A stretch of DNA of 32,000 bases from Candidatus Saccharimonadota bacterium (GCA_001761425.1 CP012986.1:360001-392000); one strand, 5' to 3'. Positions 3,988 to 31,090 are shown, counted from the stretch's first letter. Made by a program: numbers and translations. Notes: generated by a model from the sequence alone, not told the origin.

Positions 3988-5203
3988 GGGAATGGTCTAT
4001 ACGACCTTTGCTATAGTCGCTACAAATCTGCTTTTACTACTTTTCCTGACCACTTCAGGATCGAATGATTATACATCAAGCGTACAGATCAGAGAAGGAG
4101 AGGCCTCTCATTACCAACAGAGTGTAGAGGACTTTACAGGCAAGACCCATGAAATAGCTTTGAAGACTGCCAGCTCGGCTGTTATCAATCACACCTTGAG
4201 ACAAGGAGAAGGTATACAAGACGGGGAAGAGACCTTAGAGGCCCTTTTGATCAATGGAACCAGCGACGAAATAGATCGTCTCTTCAGGTACGCCTCGCTC
4301 AACAAATGGAGGGAAGACGTCAGCGAATCAGCGGAAGACAGAGGATATACACTATCTATAAAGTTCAATAAAAGGTCCCTGGACGATAGCTTCCTGAGTA
4401 TGACAGGTAATCTGACCTCGAGAATAGAGCTTGAGGCCCCTCAGACATCCTCGAGGTTCAATAAAACAGTAAGATATGAAAACCAGGTAAGCCTAGTAGG
4501 ACTTGAGGATACGATGCTGTTCTCAAGATCTGATGAAACTTACCGAAATAAATACAGACGATGTAGTTTCCGAAAACCGGCAGAAAAAATTACAGACGGC
4601 ACAGTCTCGAATCAAGGGGCAACTTTTGGAAAAGCAACCCGAAATAAAGACTCAGGGAACAAAGAAGAGAAGATCCTAGTGACAGATGGAGAACCGAACT
4701 CATCAAGAGCGAATGCCTATGCCGGAACCGTCGCATCATCGAATGAAGACCCAGAATACAAAAACACAAAATACATATTTGGAGCGGAAACAGCAGATAT
4801 AGAAGAAGGAGAGGATCTCATACTGTACCGAGATCAGGTCTGGAGCTCAAGAATCCGGCAGATAATCAACACAGGATGTTACCTGAAATCGAACGTAACA
4901 GGAGAAACCGGTCCAGGCCTGATGGAAAGAATGGAAAACAAGCTCCAGGCCCAGGAGAACGAAACAGAAGGCCTCCTCACGATTATAGATAAGAAACGTC
5001 TTCCAGAAGAGCTTCAATACCCCGGAAGATCCAGCATAGGTTACAAGTATTTTAGAAGTGATGAAGGTAAGAAAATAGCAGGCCTCACAGGAAACAAATC
5101 ATTCGACAAAAACAGAGACGGATACAGAGAGGACTTCCGACTCGATGAACAACATATTGAGAAATGGAATCTAAACACACCGGACGGAGGCCTAACATAC
5201 TGA
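3977..5203 (+). CDS. Pilin-like N-terminus protein, 408 aa, otherwise unassigned
   Basis: A GTG start gives MKNKG|MVYTTFAIVATNLLLLLFL. It overlaps the upstream gene by 11 nt and is the last gene of the + strand operon. Confidence 0.65.
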   Translation: MKNKGMVYTTFAIVATNLLLLLFLTTSGSNDYTSSVQIREGEASHYQQSVEDFTGKTHEIALKTASSAVINHTLRQGEGIQDGEETLEALLINGTSDEIDRLFRYASLNKWREDVSESAEDRGYTLSIKFNKRSLDDSFLSMTGNLTSRIELEAPQTSSRFNKTVRYENQVSLVGLEDTMLFSRSDETYRNKYRRCSFRKPAEKITDGTVSNQGATFGKATRNKDSGNKEEKILVTDGEPNSSRANAYAGTVASSNEDPEYKNTKYIFGAETADIEEGEDLILYRDQVWSSRIRQIINTGCYLKSNVTGETGPGLMERMENKLQAQENETEGLLTIIDKKRLPEELQYPGRSSIGYKYFRSDEGKKIAGLTGNKSFDKNRDGYREDFRLDEQHIEKWNLNTPDGGLTY

Positions 5204-5248
5204 AGAACTTAATCATCATAACTCCGCAGCTTTAATAGCTCGTCTTAT

Positions 5249-5275
5249 GATAAAGAGAAAAAAGGAGAAAAAGTG
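5249..5275 (-). terminator. Oligo-T tract terminator downstream of the pilin gene
   Basis: The minus strand reads CACTTTTTCTCCTTTTTTCTCTTTATC just after the pilin stop (5290..5292). Archaeal termination at T-runs is established. Confidence 0.35.
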
Positions 5276-5289
5276 TTAGACTCAACTTT

Positions 5290-5763
5290 CTAGCTGAGAG
5301 AGATACTGTCAGTCATTGTACCTGAAACAACTTGGCTCTGAATTCCATCTTCTACGTTGTACTGGATGGAGAGATCGAAGTCGTTACATCCATCTACAGA
5401 AGTTGCTCCAACGTCTGTTGTGAAGGTTGCGCTTGATCCTACTGAAATTGTTTCGTTTCCAGCATCATAGCTGTCTCCTTCAACTGAGATGTTGTCTATC
5501 TCTACAGGACTTGCTGCGGCATTCCTTAGCTCAAAAGCTAAGTTTCCATCAGAGTTTGTAGCAAAGTCTGCTACACGTACATCTGATGTTGAGAATCCTG
5601 ATGTGGATGTGGTACATTGACCCTGGACGGTTGCGAAGATTGCTCCTCCGACAATTGCTACAACAAGTAGCATCCATCCGTAGGTCATTAGGTACTCGAT
5701 TGCTGACTGACCTTTTCGCTTTGCGAATACGTCAAAATTCTGCGTCATAGTTGGTTTGGTCAC
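5290..5763 (-). CDS. Candidate major type IV pilin (class III signal peptide family)
   Basis: N-terminus FAKRKG|QSAIEYLMTYGWMLLVVAIVGGAIF is the classic archaeal class III signal motif (KGQSAIEYL). The product is small (157 aa), S/T/D-rich and has its own promoter and terminator. The start may be the GTG at 5763 or the ATG at 5748. Confidence 0.85.
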   Translation of the reverse strand: MTKPTMTQNFDVFAKRKGQSAIEYLMTYGWMLLVVAIVGGAIFATVQGQCTTSTSGFSTSDVRVADFATNSDGNLAFELRNAAASPVEIDNISVEGDSYDAGNETISVGSSATFTTDVGATSVDGCNDFDLSIQYNVEDGIQSQVVSGTMTDSISLS

Positions 5764-5789
5764 CCAATCAAGAACTAATTTGTTTGAGT

Positions 5790-5802
5790 CCTATAAAAAA
5801 CC
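5790..5802 (-). promoter_or_regulatory. TATA-box-like element for the pilin gene
   Basis: The minus strand reads GGTTTTTTATAGG, centred about 31 nt upstream of the GTG at 5763. Confidence 0.4.
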
Positions 5803-5886
5803 TTTTGAGTTAAGGCCTCTTCGTGTTTGTTTTCGATATATCTGGGTGTCGGTGTTGTTATGAAAAGATTCTAAGTCCTGTGTTTT

Positions 5887-6888
5887 TCATCCCATGGCTC
5901 CTGAAATTGCTCCCTGCACTCCTAGGAATAGTAGTATGGAGATTATAATGAATACTGGTACGTATTTGACTCCCTGTTTGATGTTGCCGTTGCTGATTTC
6001 CGAGATGATGAGGGCTGCGAACAAGTTGATTGATACGATCGCTAGAAGGGCGAATTCCTCGAATAGTGCTACATCAACATTGGGTGATGAGAAGGACATG
6101 TCGAATCCTACCTGGCTTCCTATACCTCCCATTCCTCCGCCTCCAGCGTCCTGCATGCTTCCGATATCTGCCTCGCTCCACATACTGGTGGTCTCCCGTG
6201 CCATATAGACGCTGATTGAGAACAGGACTGGTGCCCCTCCGACCGCTGCCATCATGATGAATATCTGATACATCCTGATAGATGATTTGATCTCATCCCT
6301 GATCTCCAGACTGTTCCTTATATCATCCGCGGAGGAATCCAGAAGCGCAGCTGTGTCTCCACCGGACTCTATACCATCTCTCAGCAGTTTCAGGGTTTCC
6401 TGGAAGAGCTCAGATTTCATCCTGTCCTCCAGGCTCTGCAGCGACTCCTCTACAGGCTCACCGCCATACATCTCCATGGCGGTCGCCCTCATCTCATCTG
6501 CCAGAGGCCCGAACTCATCTCTCGCAGACAGAAGAAAGGCCTTTTCCAGGGTGTGCCCTGACTTAATATTCGCTGATACAAGCCTCATAGCGTCGGGAAG
6601 TATTGATTCGATCTCTTTCTTTCTCCGCTCCGCTACGATCGAAATATACATGTAAGGAGTTACAGGTCCGGCAACAAGAGAAGCTACCAGGGCTACAACA
6701 GCTTTAGCCAAGGGATCGAAAGGTGCAAACATCATTACGATGCCCAGGGTAACTACAAAGCCAAACAGAGAACCGTAGAGAGTATATTTCTCCACTTCAT
6801 CTTCCATCGAAGCGTATAAGGCCTCCTGCTCCATCTTGTTCCTGTAGCGGGCAGGTATCAGCTCGTAGATATTCTTCTGGCTTATCAC
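5887..6888 (-). CDS. T2SSF-domain pilus/archaellum platform membrane protein (TadC/PilC/FlaJ-like)
   Basis: Contains the motif LPDAMRLVSANIKSGHTLEKAFLLSA followed by GDTAALLDSSADDIRN, plus flanking TM segments. The GTG start overlaps the upstream stop as GTGA (6885..6888). Confidence 0.8.
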   Translation of the reverse strand: MISQKNIYELIPARYRNKMEQEALYASMEDEVEKYTLYGSLFGFVVTLGIVMMFAPFDPLAKAVVALVASLVAGPVTPYMYISIVAERRKKEIESILPDAMRLVSANIKSGHTLEKAFLLSARDEFGPLADEMRATAMEMYGGEPVEESLQSLEDRMKSELFQETLKLLRDGIESGGDTAALLDSSADDIRNSLEIRDEIKSSIRMYQIFIMMAAVGGAPVLFSISVYMARETTSMWSEADIGSMQDAGGGGMGGIGSQVGFDMSFSSPNVDVALFEEFALLAIVSINLFAALIISEISNGNIKQGVKYVPVFIIISILLFLGVQGAISGAMG

Positions 6889-7742
6889 GCTGCCTTCACC
6901 TCCGGCCTCTTGGACTTAACCAGATTCAGGAAAAAGGCCTGGAAAAGTGCTAGACCTCCGAGTATACCGTAAAACGTCATCTGGTTGAGAGGAAGTTCAA
7001 CGAATGAAGACATAACTATCATCAGAGTGACTCCAAGGCTCGGAAAGATGACCGCAAGCATCAGGTACATCAGGATGAACGGGTTCAGGTCCTCACCGTA
7101 TTTCTCAACCTCCAGTTTCTGTTCCTCGACCATGGTATCTACTAGGGAATCAAGAGTATCGGTCAGGTCTGCACCCGATTTCAGGGCATTGATCATCTGC
7201 CACATAGCCCTGCGGTACATAATGCTCGGGTTCCGTGCGATAGAATCCTCCAGGGCCTTTATCTGAGACTTACCTCCCTGTATATCCGAGACGATCCTGT
7301 TAAACTCACTGGAGGCCTCACCGTAATCGTACGAAGCATCAACCATCGCCTCGTAAAGCGAAATACCTGAACTTACCTCGATAAGCATGTGGCGCAAGGC
7401 ATAAGGCAGATTCTTCTCCAGCTGGCGTGAGACACGCTTTGCTTTAACCTTGGGCTGGTAGGCAAATGTCAGGAAAAGAAGAGGCGTGAAAAGCGGTAAA
7501 AGGCCTATGCCAAGTTTCATTATGAACACTTGATCAATGATGTATCCGGCGAACCCTATTGAAGCTGCTAGAGAAACTCCTATCTGTAAAGCTCTGGCTA
7601 GAGCATTGGCTATGTACGTATCGGGGTCTTCATCCATCCTCGCTCCTCTCAAGTCCTTCTCAATGGATGGAACTGCCGGTTTCAGCTTCTCCGCTGCCGG
7701 CAGAAAATACTTCAGGTATTTCTCGGATACAGTAGTATCCAT
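6885..7742 (-). CDS. T2SSF-domain platform membrane protein (TadB-like)
   Basis: Contains the motifs LPYALRHMLIEVSSGISLYEAMVDAS and GADLTDTLDSLVDTMVEEQ, with TM segments at both ends. Confidence 0.8.
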   Translation of the reverse strand: MDTTVSEKYLKYFLPAAEKLKPAVPSIEKDLRGARMDEDPDTYIANALARALQIGVSLAASIGFAGYIIDQVFIMKLGIGLLPLFTPLLFLTFAYQPKVKAKRVSRQLEKNLPYALRHMLIEVSSGISLYEAMVDASYDYGEASSEFNRIVSDIQGGKSQIKALEDSIARNPSIMYRRAMWQMINALKSGADLTDTLDSLVDTMVEEQKLEVEKYGEDLNPFILMYLMLAVIFPSLGVTLMIVMSSFVELPLNQMTFYGILGGLALFQAFFLNLVKSKRPEVKAA

Positions 7743-13203: not shown

Positions 13204-13806
13204 CTAAGGTGCTGGCGGCATGGATCCCTGTAGACCGGCTATCTGGCCCTGAGCTCCGAGCATGGCTAGCATGCCCGTAAACGCCAGTGCGATGATAAGA
13301 AGTAATAGCACTGTAGCCGGGAGTAGGACTGCTGCAGCAGCTCGGCCTGTACTCATTCCCTGGAAGTACTCTACGCCCTTTATCTCGACGTAGATCAGGA
13401 AAATTCCGAGGACCAGGTTCACTATCCCTCCGACAACCGGTACAAAGAGGAATAGCGATGCTACAGCTGAGATGCAGGATGCGTATGCTAAAGCTGCTAA
13501 TGTCTCCCGGTAGCCGTTTTCGCCGCCGAGAAGCATAACGAACAGATGGATGATAGCTGCTCCCAGGAAAAGCCCGATCAGTCCTCCTACAATTCCGGAT
13601 ACAAGAGATATAGCTGTCGAGGTCAGGCCTCCTGATCCCAGAACTCCAGTTCTCAAACTATTCAAAATACCGACGAGAAGAAATGAGAAAGCTGCGAACT
13701 TCAAGGGATAGCCAAAGCCGTCCCTTCTGTTCTCGTTCTGGAAAAACTCTCCTGCAGAACTAAGGATCTGTCTTGTGGAATCCAGCCAGTCAGAAGCAAA
13801 TCCCAT
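13204..13806 (-). CDS. Yip1-domain-like polytopic membrane protein
   Basis: 200 aa: a soluble N-terminus followed by 5 hydrophobic segments. The overall architecture resembles archaeal Yip1 (PF04893) proteins. Family assignment is from memory only. Confidence 0.55.
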   Translation of the reverse strand: MGFASDWLDSTRQILSSAGEFFQNENRRDGFGYPLKFAAFSFLLVGILNSLRTGVLGSGGLTSTAISLVSGIVGGLIGLFLGAAIIHLFVMLLGGENGYRETLAALAYASCISAVASLFLFVPVVGGIVNLVLGIFLIYVEIKGVEYFQGMSTGRAAAAVLLPATVLLLLIIALAFTGMLAMLGAQGQIAGLQGSMPPAP

Positions 13807-14404: not shown

Positions 14405-14451
14405 GTTGGTCTAAGGTTACCTTTATCAGTGATTGTTAGAATATTGTATTC

Positions 14452-14859
14452 ATGAGTGTAGAGTCTTATCTTGAGAAAAAAGATTACGGTTTTATCGTTG
14501 CTGGAGGAGTTTTAACTGTTTTAGCTGCCTTAGTTACACCGAGGGTTTTTTCGGATCCGATGCAGATAGAGACTTATTCAAGGCTGATAGTTGCAGCATT
14601 CATACTCTATGGTCTGTTTTCTATCCATAAAGCAATTCAGTCATGGGCTGGCGAGCTGGCAAGATATCTTCAGCTCATAGGTACAGGCCTCGCGATTTTG
14701 ATGATCGCATGGATTCCTCATATCGGATGGCATGTTAGAGGTAATCCGGAGTGGTTTGGAATGTCTCCGATTTCCTGGATAACAGTATTCCATGGACTCA
14801 CCATTTTGGCTTTCGCTGTATCGGCCTACGGGTTCCACCTGTTCTGGAAGAAGGCCTGA
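14452..14859 (+). CDS. Paralog P1 of an unassigned 4-TM membrane protein family
   Basis: Shares IHKAIQSWAGELARYLQLIGTGLAILMIAWIPHIGWH ... VFHGL ... AYGFHLFW with ORFs at 15325, 15763, 16861 and 17259. A TATA-like CTTTATCA lies 27 nt upstream of the ATG. Confidence 0.8.
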   Translation: MSVESYLEKKDYGFIVAGGVLTVLAALVTPRVFSDPMQIETYSRLIVAAFILYGLFSIHKAIQSWAGELARYLQLIGTGLAILMIAWIPHIGWHVRGNPEWFGMSPISWITVFHGLTILAFAVSAYGFHLFWKKA

Positions 14860-14874
14860 GATATACTGGTAACG

Positions 14875-15258
14875 ATGAAAGGTGATGAAACGAAAATGAC
14901 AGAAGGTTTGGACGACAACAATGAGTTTTACCTTGATTTGATGAAGGACCTGGTAGAGGACCAGAAGAAGATGCTTGGAGAACAGGTAGCCCTCCAGAAG
15001 GCAAGAGGAACACCACTGGAGATGGATAAAGACGGAGATATAACAGGTTATTACGGAAAGGGAGAGGATGTACTGGAAACGATTTTGCGGAAATACGGTG
15101 AAGTGTGGGGTGATGCTGTTGCCCGAAGAAAGATGAGAAGGACGGTAAGCAAGAATATTTCTGAGGAGAACTACGAGCAACTGCCTGATTATATGAGGCC
15201 TAAAGATGATCAGAAAGGAGTGATAGGTTCAATAGTCCAGCAGATCAAAGGGGAATAG
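14875..15258 (+). CDS. Paralog S1 of an unassigned acidic soluble protein family (one S domain)
   Basis: NEFYLDLMKDLVEDQKKMLGEQVALQKARGTPLEMDKDGDITGYYGKGEDVLETILRKYGEVWGDAVA aligns with both halves of the ORF at 16253. It starts 15 nt after the P1 stop, with no promoter-like element between them. Confidence 0.8.
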   Translation: MKGDETKMTEGLDDNNEFYLDLMKDLVEDQKKMLGEQVALQKARGTPLEMDKDGDITGYYGKGEDVLETILRKYGEVWGDAVARRKMRRTVSKNISEENYEQLPDYMRPKDDQKGVIGSIVQQIKGE

Positions 15259-15324
15259 CTGTCTCCGGTTCTGAAAAACTTTTTTATGTTCGAACACTGT
15301 ATCATAATTAGGTGGATTTGAAGT

Positions 15325-15762
15325 TTGAATCTCAATAGTCAGGATTATGGAATTATCGGTGGCGGAATCCTTCTTTCATTTCTAGGAGCTTTCGCCACAG
15401 AAGCAGGAATCATAAACGCGTCTCTGGCAGGAACAATCACTACATGGCTTCCAAGGATTACAGTACTAACAATCCTTGTAGGCATTGTGTTTGTCTATCT
15501 GTCAAGGGACCTGCTCGGTGGAGAGATCGTACAGAATCTCGAAGTCGTAGCTACAGGATTCCTGATCTATGCCGTGACCTGGTGGCCTCACAAGATGGGT
15601 TACCACGCAGAGGCCTTAGGAGGAGCAGCATCAAGCATCTTCGGAGTTTTCACAACAGGTGCATGGAACGTGTTCTTCCACACGCTCACGGCAGCAGTAT
15701 TTGGCCTTGTCTCCTTCGGTTTCTACCGGTTCTGGGAGATGAGCCAGGAGGTGAACGCATAA
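15325..15762 (+). CDS. Paralog P2 of the 4-TM family (TTG start)
   Basis: Contains YLSRDLLGGEIVQNLEVVATGFLIYAVTWWPHKMGYH ... FFHTL ... SFGFYRFW. The N-terminus MNLNSQDYGIIGGG aligns with the paralog N-termini only if TTG 15325 is used. An AGGTGG Shine-Dalgarno-like motif lies 9 nt upstream. Confidence 0.7.
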   Translation: MNLNSQDYGIIGGGILLSFLGAFATEAGIINASLAGTITTWLPRITVLTILVGIVFVYLSRDLLGGEIVQNLEVVATGFLIYAVTWWPHKMGYHAEALGGAASSIFGVFTTGAWNVFFHTLTAAVFGLVSFGFYRFWEMSQEVNA

Positions 15763-16152
15763 ATGAGGCATAGCGACAAACTTGTCGTAGCAGGGGTACT
15801 TGCATTCTCAGTACTGGCAGGCCTGTGGGCACAGTTCATGGGTCTGGAACCAGCAGCGGACGCATTCATCGACTTCCTCACATTTGCAGCAGTAGCAGGA
15901 GGCCTTGTCTTCATTTACGAGGCAAGGGATGAACTGGGCGGAGAAACAGCAAGAAACCTGGAGATTCTGGGTATAGGACTACTGGTATTCGTCCTGGCCT
16001 ACTGGCCTTCCTACACATGGAGTACAGTCGGCAGTCCAGAGTGGTTAGGCATGACAACAGGCTTCTGGAGCATGTTGTTCGGCCTGGCCAACTTCGTAGG
16101 CCTTGCAATCGTAACCTACGCGTTCTACACCTTCTGGGAAATGGCTCAGTAA
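15763..16152 (+). CDS. Paralog P3 of the 4-TM family (lacks the conserved histidines)
   Basis: Contains IYEARDELGGETARNLEILGIGLLVFVLAYWPSYTWS ... LFGLA ... TYAFYTFW. Its ATG directly abuts the P2 stop (TAAATG). Confidence 0.8.
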   Translation: MRHSDKLVVAGVLAFSVLAGLWAQFMGLEPAADAFIDFLTFAAVAGGLVFIYEARDELGGETARNLEILGIGLLVFVLAYWPSYTWSTVGSPEWLGMTTGFWSMLFGLANFVGLAIVTYAFYTFWEMAQ

Positions 16153-16170
16153 AGTATAGGCCTTCAATCC

Positions 16171-16194
16171 CTTTTTCTTTCTCTTTTTTCTCTT
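16171..16194 (+). terminator. Oligo-T terminator after P3
   Basis: CTTTTTCTTTCTCTTTTTTCTCTT begins about 20 nt after the P3 stop. Confidence 0.4.
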
Positions 16195-16252
16195 GAATCT
16201 GGTCCCGTCTTATCCGAAGTAAACAAAAAGACTGATACAGAAGTCTAATAGT

Positions 16253-16858
16253 ATGCCGGATGAGGAAGGTGATCCAGAGGATGAGGACAGGCAGGAATAC
16301 TACATTGAATCTATCCAGAATATAATTGATAAACAGAAAGAACAGCTGGGAGAGGAAACAGCTATAAAATGGGCTCGTAGAGCGCCTATAAGGATAGATG
16401 CAGAGGGAGAAGTCCAGGGTTTCTATGGAACGGGAGAAGACGCGCTCGAAACCCTCAGAGACTACACAGAACACGAGGAATTTTACCTTGACGCTATAAG
16501 TTCTGTTATAGACACAATGTGCTCTTTCATGGGAGATGATGTAGGCCTCAAATACGCGAGAAAAGCACCGCTCCAGATAATGCCTGATGGAGAGGTCAAG
16601 GCCTATTACGGTACAGGAAGAAAGGCACTGACTATACTCGTGAAAAACTACGAGGACTACATGGGTAAGGCAGTCGCCGACCAGAAGATAAAAGGCGCCT
16701 TCTCAGATGTTGAGGATGAAGAACTTGATCTCGTACCGGAAGACGTAAGGCCTCAAAGCAGTGAGGAGAAAGGTTCTTCGGAAGGCCTTATCAGCAGGAT
16801 TTTCGGTATCGGAGGCTTTGTTTTATATTCTAGTCAGGATATTCCATTACCTGGATAG
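16253..16858 (+). CDS. Paralog S2 of the acidic soluble family (two tandem S domains)
   Basis: Domain a is QEYYIESIQNIIDKQKEQLGEETAIKWARRAPIRIDAEGEVQGFYGTGEDALETL. Domain b is EEFYLDAISSVIDTMCSFMGDDVGLKYARKAPLQIMPDGEVKAYYGTGRKALTIL. The tail LVPEDVRPQ...GLISRIFGIGGF parallels the S1 tail QLPDYMRPK...GVIGSIVQQI. Confidence 0.8.
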   Translation: MPDEEGDPEDEDRQEYYIESIQNIIDKQKEQLGEETAIKWARRAPIRIDAEGEVQGFYGTGEDALETLRDYTEHEEFYLDAISSVIDTMCSFMGDDVGLKYARKAPLQIMPDGEVKAYYGTGRKALTILVKNYEDYMGKAVADQKIKGAFSDVEDEELDLVPEDVRPQSSEEKGSSEGLISRIFGIGGFVLYSSQDIPLPG

Positions 16859-16860
16859 AC

Positions 16861-17262
16861 ATGGCTAAACATACACAGAGAGATTGGATTATCGGCGCAG
16901 GAGGCCTTGCATTCGTCCTAGTGCTGTCAGTTCTTTCACATCTATTACAGTTCCCAGGGATTATTGAAATCCTGGGAGATATCGTGACAGCGATCTTCGG
17001 CTTTGTAGCGGTTTACTTCATCTACAAAGCTACGGATATGCTAGGCGGAGATGTGGCAAGATATATCTCCATCATGGGTATAGGCCTTGCCTACTACTCC
17101 CTGACACTGGTGCCTCACGTTTACGGGCATCTTTCAGGTATCCACATGATAGGACCTGTCAACACAGCTTCAGTTTACCTCTGGCAGCACATAGCCAGTA
17201 TATGGGTGTTCATCATGATCAGTTACGGACTATACCTGTTCTGGAAAGGTGGTAAACAGTGA
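16861..17262 (+). CDS. Paralog P4 of the 4-TM family
   Basis: Contains IYKATDMLGGDVARYISIMGIGLAYYSLTLVPHVYGH ... WQHIA ... SYGLYLFW. It starts 2 nt after the S2 stop. Confidence 0.8.
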   Translation: MAKHTQRDWIIGAGGLAFVLVLSVLSHLLQFPGIIEILGDIVTAIFGFVAVYFIYKATDMLGGDVARYISIMGIGLAYYSLTLVPHVYGHLSGIHMIGPVNTASVYLWQHIASIWVFIMISYGLYLFWKGGKQ

Positions 17263-17684
17263 GCCTTATAGCCAACCTGGAGAAGAAGGACAAGTACCTC
17301 ATCGGAACAGGAGTAGCTCTAGGCCTGATCGCAGCAGTTATAGGACAGCTAGGAATCCTCGGAATGAAAGCGGAAATGATGCTCACCTATCTGATGGTAG
17401 CACCTATCCTTCCCGGTATCTACTTCCTTTACAAGGCAAGAAGCCTCTGGGGAGGAGATATCGCAAGATACCTGGACTTCATAGGCGCAGGCCTCATCAT
17501 CAACCTGGTTCTATTCCCTGTTCACATGAACTGGCACTTCGCAGCTCAAAGTGCTGAAGCAGCATTCCTTTCATGGGGAATCAGTCCAAGCTTCTGGTAC
17601 ATGTTCTTCCACGGACTGGCAGGATACTCCTTTGCAATGCTTGCATACGGATTCTACCTGTTCTACCAATCAGGCGCCGAATAA
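17259..17684 (+). CDS. Paralog P5 of the 4-TM family
   Basis: Contains LYKARSLWGGDIARYLDFIGAGLIINLVLFPVHMNWH ... FFHGL ... AYGFYLFY. Its GTG start overlaps the P4 stop as GTGA. Confidence 0.8.
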   Translation: MSLIANLEKKDKYLIGTGVALGLIAAVIGQLGILGMKAEMMLTYLMVAPILPGIYFLYKARSLWGGDIARYLDFIGAGLIINLVLFPVHMNWHFAAQSAEAAFLSWGISPSFWYMFFHGLAGYSFAMLAYGFYLFYQSGAE

Positions 17685-17686
17685 AC

Positions 17687-17719
17687 TTTTCCCCTTCTTT
17701 TTTCTTTTCCAACAAAAAA
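17687..17719. terminator. Bidirectional T-rich terminator region between P5 (+) and RNase Z (-)
   Basis: The plus strand reads TTTTCCCCTTCTTTTTTCTTTTCC after the P5 stop. The minus strand reads TTTTTTGTTGG immediately after the RNase Z stop. Confidence 0.4.
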
Positions 17720-18712: not shown

Positions 18713-19243
18713 ATGGGTCTGGAGGATTTTTCCGAGTCAGATATAGAAGATTATGCTCATGAGGCAAGGATCAGAGGCAATCTAGATGATTTTTTTATGC
18801 TGGATCAAAGCCCTGATCTGCATGGTGTTAACAGGAGAGCCGAGGGCATGGAAGCTCCCAAGACTTTTGCCAGGCAGGTTGCCTCAAGAGCCACAGAATT
18901 CGCTGAACAGGAAGATGTATTTATCCTTCTGGGAGAGGAAGACGGAAATCTCAACGTCGTAGCCTACGATGACGGCGAAGTAGGTATGAGAAAGGAATCA
19001 GGCCACTGGGATGTCTACAGAGATATTCTTAGAGCGGACGAATTAAGGCCTGGAATGGAGCCGGAGAAGACTGTTGAGATGCCTGATGTCTTCCAAACTG
19101 ATGTCTACAGTCTGGATCTCGCCCCAACAAGTCAGAGATACGTCAAAACAAGAAATGGAGGAGTCATAGGCCCTTACACAGAAGATTTCCACAACGAATA
19201 CGGAGACTTCGAACAGGAACAGGATCACTGGACAAAAATATAA
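18713..19243 (+). CDS. Acidic hypothetical protein (176 aa)
   Basis: ORF with acidic composition. A TATA-like ATATATA lies about 26 nt upstream of the ATG. The 3' end overlaps the convergent trm11 gene by 19 nt. Confidence 0.55.
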   Translation: MGLEDFSESDIEDYAHEARIRGNLDDFFMLDQSPDLHGVNRRAEGMEAPKTFARQVASRATEFAEQEDVFILLGEEDGNLNVVAYDDGEVGMRKESGHWDVYRDILRADELRPGMEPEKTVEMPDVFQTDVYSLDLAPTSQRYVKTRNGGVIGPYTEDFHNEYGDFEQEQDHWTKI

Positions 19244-31018: not shown

Positions 31019-31090
31019 TGCGGCGTCGGGGATTTGAACCCCGGTTACGCGCATGGCAAGCACGTGTCTTAGCCACTGGACCAACGCCGC
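31019..31090 (-). tRNA. tRNA-Gly (anticodon GCC), no intron, no encoded CCA
   Basis: The reverse complement is GCGGCGT-TG-GTCC-AGTGGCTA-AGAC-A-CGTGC-TTGCCAT-GCGCG-TAAC-CGGGG-TTCAAAT-CCCCG-ACGCCGC-A. It has a 7-bp acceptor stem, a 5-bp anticodon stem with one G-U pair, a 5-bp T stem with a TTCAAAT loop and the anticodon loop TT-GCC-AT. Confidence 0.93.

What the first reader, a model, noticed from the sequence alone, without database searches (positions are those of the whole stretch)
14452..17684. Array of five paralogous 4-TM proteins interleaved with two paralogous acidic soluble proteins: an unassigned two-family cassette
**P family.** Five ORFs (P1 14452, P2 15325, P3 15763, P4 16861, P5 17259; 129-145 aa) are clearly homologous. 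All have 4 predicted TM helices and a conserved TM2-TM3 loop/TM3 block:
- IHKAIQSWAGELARYLQLIGTGL
- YLSRDLLGGEIVQNLEVVATGF
- IYEARDELGGETARNLEILGIGL
- IYKATDMLGGDVARYISIMGIGL
- LYKARSLWGGDIARYLDFIGAGL

They also share a (W)PHxxxxH block at the end of TM3, an FH(G/T)L in TM4 and a C-terminal (Y/F)G(F/L)YxFW.

**S family.** Two soluble acidic ORFs (S1 14875, S2 16253) share a domain of about 60 aa: (E/Q)E(F/Y)Y(L/I)...LGE(E/Q)xAxKxAR(K/R)AP(L/I)xIDxxGEVxG(Y/F)YGTGEDALETL. They also share a tail (PEDVRPQ / PDYMRPK) followed by a short amphipathic or hydrophobic end.

**Layout.** Spacing, TATA-like elements and T-tracts suggest three transcription units: P1-S1, P2-P3 and S2-P4-P5.

I do not recognise either family. 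The tight, repeated P/S pairing suggests a membrane protein plus peripheral partner module that has been amplified in tandem. The locus sits between housekeeping tRNA-processing genes (aTrm56, RNase Z).
Basis: partly seen in the sequence, partly recalled or inferred. Interest (0 to 1): 0.8.

Follow-up and report, generated by a model that had tools for sequence, protein, structure and literature searches.

The report
New nanohaloarchaeal membrane protein module
Seven neighbouring genes of a tiny salt-loving symbiotic archaeon encode two protein families never described before, small four-helix membrane proteins and a soluble partner, which travel together and are sometimes fused across the phylum, so they very probably form one membrane complex whose job is still unknown.

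Summary
The window comes from Nanohaloarchaea archaeon SG9, genes AQV86_02075 to 02105, all annotated "hypothetical protein". It holds five paralogous 4-TM proteins (P1-P5) and two soluble acidic proteins (S1, S2).

- S2 contains two S domains, so there are three S domains in all.
- The conserved unit is S plus two different P genes, not P plus S.
- P3 and its orthologues have lost all three conserved histidines.

Neither family matches Pfam, NCBIfam, PADLOC, PHROGs, PDB sequences or PDB/BFVD folds. An exhaustive HMM search of 1.84 billion representative proteins found only 83 P relatives. The ones that carry names are essentially all Nanohaloarchaeota.

S lies next to P genes in nearly every locus I examined. 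S-P-P, P-P and P-S fusion proteins exist, which fixes the P topology as N-in/C-in and supports a physical complex.

My best reading is a Pa-Pb membrane heterodimer. S would dock on a conserved cytoplasmic TM2-TM3 hairpin, and a His3, Trp-rich site at the outer membrane face would bind a metal or other small ligand, for uptake or sensing. The complex is well supported. The biochemical function is inferred and uncertain.

Novelty is high and interest moderate to high.

The parts
14421..14428 (+). TATA-like CTTTATCA, 24-31 nt upstream of the P1 ATG; possible promoter of a leaderless transcript
   Evidence: Read directly from the sequence. Its role is an inference and was not tested.
14452..14859 (+). 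P1, 135 aa, 4-TM protein (AQV86_02075). It is an extra P paralogue, closest to the P5 type.
14623..14670 (+). P1 residues 58-73: the cytoplasmic tip of the TM2-TM3 helical hairpin. It carries the family motif Y-x-A-R-D-x-L-G-G-E-x-A-R, in which G67 is the most conserved residue of the family.
   Evidence: AF2 helices 36-64 and 68-96 with a turn at 65-67.
14719..14793 (+). P1 codons H90, H94 and H114: the His-x3-His plus His triad at the outer ends of TM3 and TM4, set in a Trp-rich loop
   Evidence: The pattern is HHH in 110 of 155 P domains. All three are lost in the P3 clade.
14875..15258 (+). S1, 127 aa, with one S domain plus a helical tail, the LPDYMRP motif and a short hydrophobic end (AQV86_02080)
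   Evidence: Its orthologues in Ca. Nanohalobium have two domains (P0087, 185 aa).
15279..15288 (+). CTTTTTTATG between S1 and P2: an oligo-T tract (terminator-like) that also reads as a TATA-like element. It is followed by an SD-like AGGTGG at 15310-15315.
   Evidence: Read directly from the sequence. Function is inferred only.
15325..15762 (+). P2, 145 aa, 4-TM, His triad present (AQV86_02085)
15763..16152 (+). P3, 129 aa, 4-TM, His triad replaced by S/S/G. Its start codon abuts the P2 stop codon (AQV86_02090).
16170..16195 (+). T-rich tract after P3, a possible archaeal terminator
   Evidence: Read directly from the sequence. Inference only.
16253..16858 (+). S2, 201 aa (AQV86_02095). S domain a is at 16286-16465 and S domain b at 16469-16651. 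These are followed by a helical tail, the invariant L-x-P-x-x-x-R-P motif at 16730-16753, a disordered acidic/Ser linker and a hydrophobic end.
16861..17262 (+). P4, 133 aa, 4-TM, the position-1 (Pa) subunit of module I. It starts 2 nt after the S2 stop codon (AQV86_02100).
17259..17684 (+). P5, 141 aa, 4-TM, the position-2 (Pb) subunit of module I. Its GTG start overlaps the P4 stop codon by 4 nt (AQV86_02105).
17687..17709 (.). T-rich tract between the convergent P5 and RNase Z genes, a possible shared terminator
   Evidence: Read directly from the sequence. Inference only.

Best explanation
The seven genes encode a membrane module restricted to Nanohaloarchaeota. Its unit is one S protein plus two different P subunits (S-Pa-Pb). 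SG9 carries two such old modules side by side (S1-P2-P3 and S2-P4-P5) plus an extra P1.

**The P protein.** Each P is a four-helix membrane protein with both ends in the cytoplasm.
- TM2 and TM3 protrude into the cytoplasm as a conserved hairpin (Y-x-A-R-D-x-L-G-G-E-x-A-R).
- The outer ends of TM3 and TM4 carry a His-x3-His plus His triad. It sits in a Trp-rich loop, often with a Glu or Asp at the outer start of TM2.

**The S protein.** S is cytoplasmic and contains one to three copies of a ~60-residue alpha-alpha-beta-beta-alpha domain. These are followed by a helical tail, an invariant L-x-P-x-x-x-R-P motif, a flexible linker and a short hydrophobic end that lies at the membrane.

**Proposed mechanism.**
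1. Pa and Pb pair into an 8-TM heterodimer.
2. S docks on their cytoplasmic hairpins. It acts as a pseudo-dimer, or as a homodimer when it has a single domain.
3. The outer His3 site binds a metal ion or another small ligand.
4. Binding or passage of that ligand is coupled to S, making the complex a small uptake or sensing device.

**Shown here:** the two families, the N-in/C-in topology, the conserved module and its fusions, and the all-or-none histidine pattern.

**Inferred:** Pa-Pb pairing, the docking surface, the ligand, and whether anything crosses the membrane.

**My sub-probabilities:**
- P-P-S physical complex: about 0.8
- Outer His site binds a metal or small ligand: about 0.4
- Actual transport: about 0.25
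For: **Module conservation.**
- S is adjacent to two P genes in L001-L006, L008, L013-L019 and L021-L024.
- Gene spacing in the window is tight: P2/P3 abut, S2/P4 are 2 nt apart, and P4/P5 overlap by 4 nt.

**Position-specific clades.** The P gene in position 1 and the P gene in position 2 of each module fall in separate ancient clades (NJ tree). This is what is expected for an obligate heterodimer.

**Fusions.**
- S-P-P in one polypeptide: P0184 (392 aa) and P0192 (390 aa). They are 42% identical over their full length, so the fusion is conserved and not an artefact.
- P-P: P0140, P0141, P0142 and P0156. P0140 is SG9's own AQV86_00085 and is seen in four assemblies.
- P-S: P0195, a cluster of four members.
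- An N-terminal S and a C-terminal S both fused to P force an N-in/C-in topology. This agrees with K/R clustering at the N-terminus, the TM2-TM3 loop and the C-terminus.

**Structure models.** P1 has pLDDT 92 with four helices and the TM2-TM3 turn at residues 65-67. S2 has two tandem alpha-alpha-beta-beta-alpha domains, pLDDT 78, and a disordered C-terminus.

**His triad.**
- It reads HHH in 110 of 155 P domains, and 29 domains have none of the three.
- The whole P3 clade and the first P of the S-P-P fusions have lost all three together. Joint loss argues for a single site.
- The three His lie 2-8 residues from the outer helix ends.
- A distant P-like protein, P0216, is even richer in His on the same face.

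**Distribution.** There are only 83 relatives among 1.84 billion representative proteins. Named relatives are Nanohaloarchaeota.
Against: - There is no model or experiment for the complex.
- The TM cores carry no conserved charged or polar residues. This argues against a classical ion or solute pathway within a subunit.
- The association is not obligatory. SG9's second P cluster (a P-P fusion plus two P genes) has no S within 5 kb. The S in L007 has no P within 10 kb upstream or 2 kb downstream.
- The number of S domains per module varies from 1 to 3 for two P subunits, so a strict one-domain-per-subunit picture fails.
- The hydrophobic moment of the S C-terminal end is moderate and not significant against shuffles.
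- One subunit type (P3) works without any of the histidines.
- No metal-handling or transport genes are conserved nearby. Contexts differ between clades.
Confidence: 0.45

Rival explanations
1. Signal relay or sequestration. P-P is a membrane sensor of an external cue, read at the outer His/Trp face. S is a small regulatory protein held at or released from the membrane. It might bind nucleic acid through the conserved basic K-x-A-R-R-A-P helix that follows a helix-turn, with the beta-hairpin acting as a wing. Nothing is transported.
For: - The TM cores have no conserved polar residues.
- S shows a helix-turn-helix-hairpin order and a conserved basic patch in an otherwise acidic protein.
- S can be encoded apart from P (L007).
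- P clusters exist without S.
Against: - Foldseek finds no winged-helix or other DNA-binding fold at E<=0.001. The best hits are H-NOX at E>1, and IdeR and CarH appear only at E of about 4.5-4.8.
- There is no HTH match in Pfam.
- Permanent S-P-P fusions do not fit a release mechanism, although ToxR-like tethered regulators do exist.
- No conserved target genes lie nearby.
Confidence: 0.15
2. Structural or contact scaffold. The expanded family of small 4-TM proteins organises the symbiont's membrane or its contact zone with the haloarchaeal host, in the manner of tetraspanin, claudin or connexin-type 4-TM proteins. S would be the cytoplasmic adaptor.
For: - There are at least 9 P domains in a 1.1-Mb genome.
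- Conservation is concentrated at the two membrane interfaces rather than in the TM cores.
- The family is restricted to an obligately host-attached phylum.
- The host dependence of Nanohaloarchaeota is documented (PMC6642349, title and abstract listed).
Against: This is analogy only. There is no homology to any of those eukaryotic families and no localisation data. The outer loops are short (about 10-18 residues), which leaves little to dock on another cell. The strict His triad looks more like a binding site than a scaffold feature.
Confidence: 0.12
3. Cofactor-binding membrane anchor. The histidines on TM3 and TM4 ligate a haem or similar planar cofactor inside an aromatic pocket, as in small b-type cytochrome anchors or the His-flanked Trp-rich loops of haem-handling proteins. 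S would be the soluble partner anchored by it.
For: - His residues sit on adjacent helices at similar depth, surrounded by Trp and Phe.
- One subunit of a pair can lack them.
- That SdhC/SdhD-type anchors and CcmC-type WWD loops work this way is from my own knowledge, not a test here.
Against: - No Pfam match to cytochrome b, Sdh or Ccm families appears in any of 68 members.
- S has no conserved Cys or His redox motif apart from one linker His.
- I saw no respiratory or haem genes in the window or in related loci.
Confidence: 0.07
4. The ORFs are unrelated neighbours or partly spurious, or the cassette is a mobile, viral or defence element rather than a cellular complex.
For: - All seven genes are annotated only as hypothetical.
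- Their position relative to RNase Z differs between genomes.
Against: - The proteins are conserved across the phylum at 25-95% identity.
- The AF2 models are confident.
- The genes occur as fusions.
- There are no relatives in IMG/VR viral contigs and no PADLOC or significant PHROG hits.
- The flanking genes are housekeeping, and base composition across the window is flat.
Confidence: 0.03

Closest known systems
CREST superfamily of membrane metal-dependent hydrolases (alkaline ceramidase, PAQR/hemolysin III, Per1; PMC3146951)
   Same: Both have an interfacial set of three histidines that includes an HxxxH on one helix, sometimes with a carboxylate, located near one membrane surface of a helical bundle. 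This would suit a metal site acting on or near lipids.
   Different: - CREST proteins have seven core TM helices and the motif order SxxxH / D / HxxxH.
- P has four TM helices, with HxxxH at the outer end of TM3 and one His in TM4. It has no SxxxH and no universally conserved Asp.
- No Pfam match was found.
- The resemblance concerns how the site might work. It is not evidence of membership.
Paired small multidrug resistance proteins (SMR/PSMR, e.g. EbrAB; PF00893)
   Same: Both involve two adjacent, translationally coupled genes for different 4-TM proteins of about 110-145 aa that are expected to form a heterodimer.
   Different: - No member matches PF00893.
- There is no conserved membrane-embedded Glu in TM1.
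- Both P subunits have the same N-in/C-in orientation, shown by the fusions.
- P has a dedicated soluble partner, which SMR proteins lack.
Membrane subunit plus cytoplasmic regulatory partner systems (e.g. KtrB-KtrA, Orai-STIM), by analogy only and from my own knowledge
   Same: A small membrane protein is encoded next to, or fused with, a cytoplasmic protein that is thought to sit on its cytoplasmic face.
   Different: There is no sequence or fold relation. S has no RCK, CBS or nucleotide-binding signature. The P TM cores lack a selectivity-filter-like motif.
KH domain, winged helix and H-NOX/V4R folds, considered as candidates for the S domain
   Same: The order helix - short helix - beta-hairpin - helix, and the pattern G-x-x-x-A-h-K-x-A-R...h-x-I-D...G-x-V...G-x-G-x-x-A-L, recall the alpha2-beta2-beta'-alpha' part of KH or an HTH with a wing. 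The best Foldseek hits are H-NOX domains.
   Different: - S has no GXXG loop (it reads G-E-E-T / G-E-Q-V) and no beta1 strand.
- The single-domain profile finds no KH protein in the PDB.
- FMR1 scores only E=0.29.
- H-NOX hits have E>1 and TM-scores of 0.26-0.29.
DUF2512 (PF10710), a bacterial 4-TM family of unknown function
   Same: It is the only Pfam family hit by several P members (8 of 68), and it is of similar size.
   Different: The best E-value is 0.19, against a gathering threshold of 26.5 bits, with scores of about 10 bits. This is indistinguishable from hydrophobic noise.

Membership tests
SMR / paired SMR (PF00893) | Match to the family HMM | tested here: not met
   No hit at E<=1 for the five window proteins or for any of the 68 aligned members.
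SMR / paired SMR (PF00893) | Conserved membrane-embedded glutamate in TM1 | tested here: not met
   The TM1 columns (residues 12-32) have no conserved acidic residue. The conserved D11 lies at the cytoplasmic boundary, before the hydrophobic stretch.
CREST membrane hydrolases (PMC3146951) | Seven core transmembrane segments | tested here: not met
   The AF2 model has four helices, pLDDT 92. P proteins are 129-145 aa long.
CREST membrane hydrolases (PMC3146951) | Motifs SxxxH, D and HxxxH (three His, one Asp, one Ser) near one membrane face | tested here: inconclusive
   P has HxxxH (H90, H94) plus H114 in 110 of 155 domains. An acidic residue at position 40 is present in only about 62-65% of domains. 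There is no SxxxH.
KH domain | GXXG loop between helix 1 and helix 2, and a beta-alpha-alpha-beta-beta-alpha fold | tested here: not met
   The S loop reads G-E-E-T, G-E-Q-V or G-D-D-V. The AF2 topology is alpha-alpha-beta-beta-alpha without beta1. No KH chain appears in the PDB profile search.
H-NOX / V4R-like fold | Significant structural superposition | tested here: not met
Winged helix-turn-helix DNA-binding domains | Fold or profile match to a wHTH family | tested here: not met
   None of 32 S members matches an HTH family in Pfam at E<=1. The only DNA-binding folds listed by Foldseek are CarH and IdeR at E of about 4.5-4.8.
Anti-phage defence systems (PADLOC) and phage protein families (PHROGs) | Match to any model | tested here: not met
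   PADLOC gives no hit at E<=0.1. PHROGs gives only scattered hits with E>=0.002 to different families. There are no S relatives in IMG/VR contigs.
Any family with a solved structure | Sequence-profile match to a PDB chain | tested here: not met
   The best E-values are 5 for the P profile, 0.29 for the two-domain S profile and 0.11 for the single S-domain profile. All are short or repetitive chance matches.

The most novel reading that the evidence does not exclude
The P-P-S module is a new class of symbiont-specific membrane metalloprotein complex. Two 4-TM subunits build an interfacial His3 (plus Glu) site on the outer leaflet. That site takes a metal, lipid or cofactor from the haloarchaeal host or the environment, possibly by CREST-like chemistry on host lipids that these archaea cannot make themselves. 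A lineage-specific cytoplasmic domain family (S) gates or relays the process. Expansion of the family to at least 9 P domains in a 1.1-Mb genome would then reflect a central role in the host-dependent lifestyle.
Probability: 0.15. Interest if true: 0.85.

Novelty: categorically new. Interest (0 to 1): 0.6.

Why it matters
Nanohaloarchaeota are obligate, host-attached archaea with genomes of about 1 Mb. How they obtain what they cannot make, and how they interact with the host membrane, is largely unknown.

This work defines a compact, phylum-wide, multi-copy membrane module made of two undescribed protein families. SG9 alone carries at least 9 P domains and 3 S domains.

The module has clear, testable features:
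- a defined topology;
- natural fusions that specify the partners;
- an all-or-none outer histidine triad;
- a conserved cytoplasmic hairpin.

These features give experimental groups working with cultivated Nanohaloarchaeota-host pairs concrete targets. They also define two new families for the databases.

If the function proves to be generic housekeeping, the finding is still a useful annotation, though not a surprise. Lineage-specific hypothetical membrane proteins are common in DPANN genomes.

Tried and rejected
**Family and structure libraries.**
- Pfam, NCBIfam, PADLOC and PHROGs scans of the window proteins, and Pfam scans of all aligned members, gave nothing consistent.
- PDB sequence searches with three profiles gave nothing.
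- Foldseek against PDB for both models, and against BFVD for S, gave no hit at E<=0.001.

**Ideas for the S domain.**
- A KH-like reading was prompted by a weak FMR1 hit and the motif pattern. I rejected it because there is no GXXG loop, no beta1 strand, and no KH hit with the single-domain profile.
- The idea of one S domain per P subunit was rejected because modules occur with 1, 2 or 3 S domains for two P genes.
- Treating the S C-terminal end as a significant amphipathic helix was inconclusive: muH is 0.34-0.69 and not better than shuffles.

**Ideas from genomic context.**
- I suspected the 281-aa membrane protein upstream of S in L007 was a P-P fusion. It is not.
- Adjacency to a CPA2 antiporter is seen only in one clade (L006, L014), so it is not a conserved link.
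- I tested whether window 18713-19243 is homologous to the gene that follows P3 in L013 and L023. It is not detectably so.

**Other.**
- The genome-contig scan with the P alignment failed because no stretch was conserved enough. The S alignment was used instead.
- Literature searches found no description of either family.

Full report
**What is in the window.** All seven ORFs lie on the + strand at the reported coordinates. They are P1 14452-14859, S1 14875-15258, P2 15325-15762 (TTG start), P3 15763-16152, S2 16253-16858, P4 16861-17262 and P5 17259-17684 (GTG start). Exact-sequence look-up identifies them as AQV86_02075 to AQV86_02105 of Nanohaloarchaea archaeon SG9, a 1.1-Mb genome. All are annotated "hypothetical protein", with the same start codons. 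The flanking genes are ThrRS, a Yip1-domain membrane protein and aTrm56 upstream. Downstream lie a convergent RNase Z-type metallo-beta-lactamase, a UPF0020 methyltransferase and an LPG-synthase-like protein. Base composition across the window is flat.

- P1-P5 are 28-37% identical to P1. Their pairwise BLASTP E-values run from 5e-6 to 2e-20 at proteome scale.
- The AF2 model of P1, built with a 68-sequence alignment, has pLDDT 92 and four long helices at 9-32, 36-64, 68-96 and 106-134.
- S2 is an internal tandem repeat of the S domain (residues 12-71 and 73-133). S1 aligns with the second repeat plus the tail.
- The AF2 model of S2 (pLDDT 78) shows two alpha-alpha-beta-beta-alpha domains, a helical tail and a disordered last 30 residues.

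**Neither family is known.**
- Pfam and NCBIfam gave no hit for the window proteins.
- Pfam gave no consistent hit when all 68 P and 32 S relatives were scanned one by one. The most frequent match, DUF2512, reaches only E=0.19.
- PADLOC and PHROGs gave nothing meaningful.
- Profile searches of PDB sequences found only chance matches.
- Foldseek against PDB gave no match at E<=0.001 for either model. The best for S were H-NOX domains at E>1 and TM-scores of 0.26-0.29. The best for P were generic helical bundles. BFVD also gave none.
- Three literature searches found no description of these proteins.

**Distribution.**
- Word-indexed profile searches of 5.8 billion proteins found 64 P and 55 S relatives.
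- An exhaustive hmmsearch of the P profile over 1.84 billion cluster representatives found only 83 proteins at E<=1e-3.
- Every named relative is a nanohaloarchaeon: SG9, SW_7_46_7, Ca. Nanohalobium, QJJ-5 and Asbonarchaeaceae.
- At the margin are a single-domain S in Parvarchaeota (P0122, E 1e-12) and a borderline P-like protein whose cluster includes a Parcubacteria sequence.
- No S relative occurs in IMG/VR viral contigs.

**The unit is S plus two different P genes.** I scanned all fetched loci with HMMs of both families.

| Locus | Arrangement |
|---|---|
| L002, L003, L004, L006, L014-L015, L018 | S-P-P |
| L019 (1,990-bp contig) | S followed by one detected P |
| L005, L008 | P'-P'-S, with shorter P' |
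| L021 | Divergently transcribed S next to P-P |
| L001, L017 | The same array as the window: all seven genes in L001; P1-S1-P2-P3-S2 in L017, which is cut at the contig end |

The arrangement in L013 is Trm56-[S-P-P]-RNaseZ(-)-[S(one domain)-P-P]. This shows that S1-P2-P3 is a block of its own. A neighbour-joining tree puts the position-1 and position-2 P genes of each module in separate old clades (the P4, P5, P2 and P3 types). P1 is a lone branch nearest the P5 type. The SG9 array is therefore two ancient modules plus an extra P1 lying side by side, not a recent tandem amplification.

In the window, P2/P3 abut, S2/P4 are 2 nt apart and P4/P5 overlap by 4 nt. S1-P2 are 66 nt apart and P3-S2 are 100 nt apart, with T-tracts and TATA-like elements between them. 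Only RNA data can decide.

**Fusions tie the families together and fix the topology.**
- S-P-P in one chain: P0184 and P0192, 42% identical along their whole length.
- P-P: P0140, P0141, P0142 and P0156. P0140 is SG9's own AQV86_00085 and appears in four assemblies.
- P-S: P0195, four cluster members.

S has no signal peptide or hydrophobic segment. An S fused to the N-terminus of P, and an S fused to its C-terminus, together place both ends of P in the cytoplasm. This agrees with K/R clustering at the N-terminus, the TM2-TM3 loop and the C-terminus. The best-conserved block of P, Y-x-A-R-D-x-L-G-G-E-x-A-R with G67 nearly invariant, is therefore the cytoplasmic tip of the TM2-TM3 hairpin. The W-P-H-x-x-W-H ... 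F-H block lies at the outer face.

**The histidine triad.** Among 155 aligned P domains, H90, H94 and H114 (P1 numbering) are all present in 110 and all absent in 29. Partial patterns are few.
- The entire P3 clade reads S/S/G at these positions.
- The first P of the S-P-P fusions has also lost all three.
- So has one of the two extra P genes in SG9's second cluster.

Typical pairs are thus His-plus/His-plus or His-plus/His-minus. The three His lie 2-8 residues from the outer ends of TM3 and TM4. An acidic residue at the outer start of TM2 is present in about two thirds of domains. Joint conservation and joint loss point to a single site, most simply a metal or small-ligand site at the outer membrane interface. 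The TM cores have no conserved charged residues, which weakens a classical transporter reading.

**Limits of the association.**
- SG9 has a second cluster elsewhere in its genome (L025): a P-P fusion plus two P genes on the opposite strand, with no S domain within 5 kb.
- The S in L007 has no P within the 10 kb upstream or 2 kb downstream that could be read.
- S proteins carry one (13), two (49) or three (4) S domains, so stoichiometry is not fixed.
- S1-type proteins have one domain in SG9, L013 and L022-L024 but two in Ca. Nanohalobium.
- The short hydrophobic C-terminal end of S is not significantly amphipathic by hydrophobic moment. In the S-P-P fusions, however, the same region runs directly into TM1, so it lies at the membrane.

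**Most likely mechanism.**
- Well supported (about 0.8): Pa and Pb pair in the membrane, and S is their cytoplasmic partner.
- Inferred: S docks on the protruding TM2-TM3 hairpins. The outer His3/Trp site binds a metal ion or other small ligand (about 0.4). Binding or passage is coupled to S, for uptake or sensing (transport about 0.25).

Rival readings are a sensor with S as a tethered regulator, a membrane or host-contact scaffold, and a cofactor-binding anchor. Chance adjacency or a mobile or defence origin is effectively excluded.

**Comparison with known systems.** The closest functional analogies are two. One is the interfacial His3 metal sites of CREST membrane hydrolases, which have seven TM helices and a different motif order (PMC3146951). 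The other is paired SMR-type 4-TM heterodimers, for which there is no HMM match, no TM1 Glu, and no soluble partner. The defining features of both were tested and not met, so P belongs to neither. KH, winged-helix and H-NOX readings of S were also tested and not supported.

**Verdict.** This is a real, conserved module restricted to one phylum, built from two undescribed protein families. It has strong evidence for a physical complex and clear structural hooks, but no established function. Novelty is high. Interest is moderate to high (0.6), because lineage-specific hypothetical membrane proteins are common in DPANN. This one, however, is multi-copy in a minimal genome and unusually well defined for experiments.

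Noticed in passing
L025 (SG9 genome, contig positions 8700-19509): 5001-5810 (+), 6202-6615 (-), 6612-7025 (-): SG9 has a second P cluster elsewhere in its genome. It consists of a P-P fusion gene (AQV86_00085, 269 aa) plus two more P genes on the opposite strand, with no S domain within 5 kb. SG9 therefore has at least 9 P domains but only 3 S domains in the regions seen.
   Followed up: partly
L004 (JBLGBK010000004.1): This contig is filed under a 'Colwellia polaris' (bacterial) MAG. It carries archaeal ribosomal and housekeeping genes and an S-P-P module, in the same gene order as the nanohaloarchaeal L002. It is probably a mis-binned contig.
   Followed up: partly
L022, L023 and L024 (e.g. 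L023 2608-3165): Two tandem genes of 91 and 93 aa encode three-helix 'mini-P' proteins. They keep the cytoplasmic knob motif (FIYKA...GEIG...GAGF) but lack the outer His loop. They sit between a full-length P and a single-domain S.
   Followed up: partly
L005 8402-9660 and L008 1175-2459: In Asbonarchaeaceae-like genomes the gene order is reversed (P'-P'-S), with 105-115-aa P' proteins. The module lies directly downstream of SRP54.
   Followed up: no
L006 3652-7668; L014 6549-7771: In this clade S has three S domains (256-268 aa). It is preceded by CPA2-type cation/proton antiporter genes. In L006 the antiporter stop codon overlaps the S start codon. In L014 only a 65-aa Na_H_Exchanger fragment remains.
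   Followed up: partly
L009-L012 (e.g. L009 2365-3748): Parvarchaeota encode a 102-aa single-domain S relative (P0122). It is flanked by two unassigned small membrane proteins. One of them, convergent and about 121-129 aa, has a KKFGGAFK loop reminiscent of the P knob, but it is not detected by the P HMM.
   Followed up: partly
L001 2603-3015: The P1 orthologue in the Ca. Nanohalobium MAG is split over two overlapping reading frames. This is a frameshift, a pseudogene or an assembly error.
   Followed up: no
P0216 / P0219 (not in the window): A borderline P-like protein (E 9e-5) belongs to a cluster that includes a Candidatus Parcubacteria (CPR) protein, MBT3538977.1. It has a signal-peptide-like start and many histidines on the predicted outer face (HGHEHG, HHYDFH, GHDIFHH).
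   Followed up: no
window 5887-7742 (-): Two adjacent paralogous genes each carry a T2SS-F (FlaJ/TadC-like) domain. They are probably the membrane platform of an archaeal type IV pilus or archaellum-like machine.
   Followed up: no
window 13204-13806 (-): A Yip1-domain membrane protein lies next to Trm56. The same neighbour, in one or two copies, is conserved in L022-L024.
   Followed up: no
window 18713-19243 (+): A 176-aa acidic protein has no Pfam or NCBIfam family. It is not detectably related to the gene that occupies the equivalent position after P3 in L013 and L023.
   Followed up: partly
window 14641-15180 (-) and 15911-16474 (-): Long antisense ORFs (179 and 187 aa) overlap P1/S1 and P3/S2. 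Nothing supports them as genes, and they are probably by-products of the coding strand.
   Followed up: no
window 31019-31090 (-): A tRNA-Gly(GCC) gene is the only RNA gene found in the window by ARAGORN and Rfam.
   Followed up: yes
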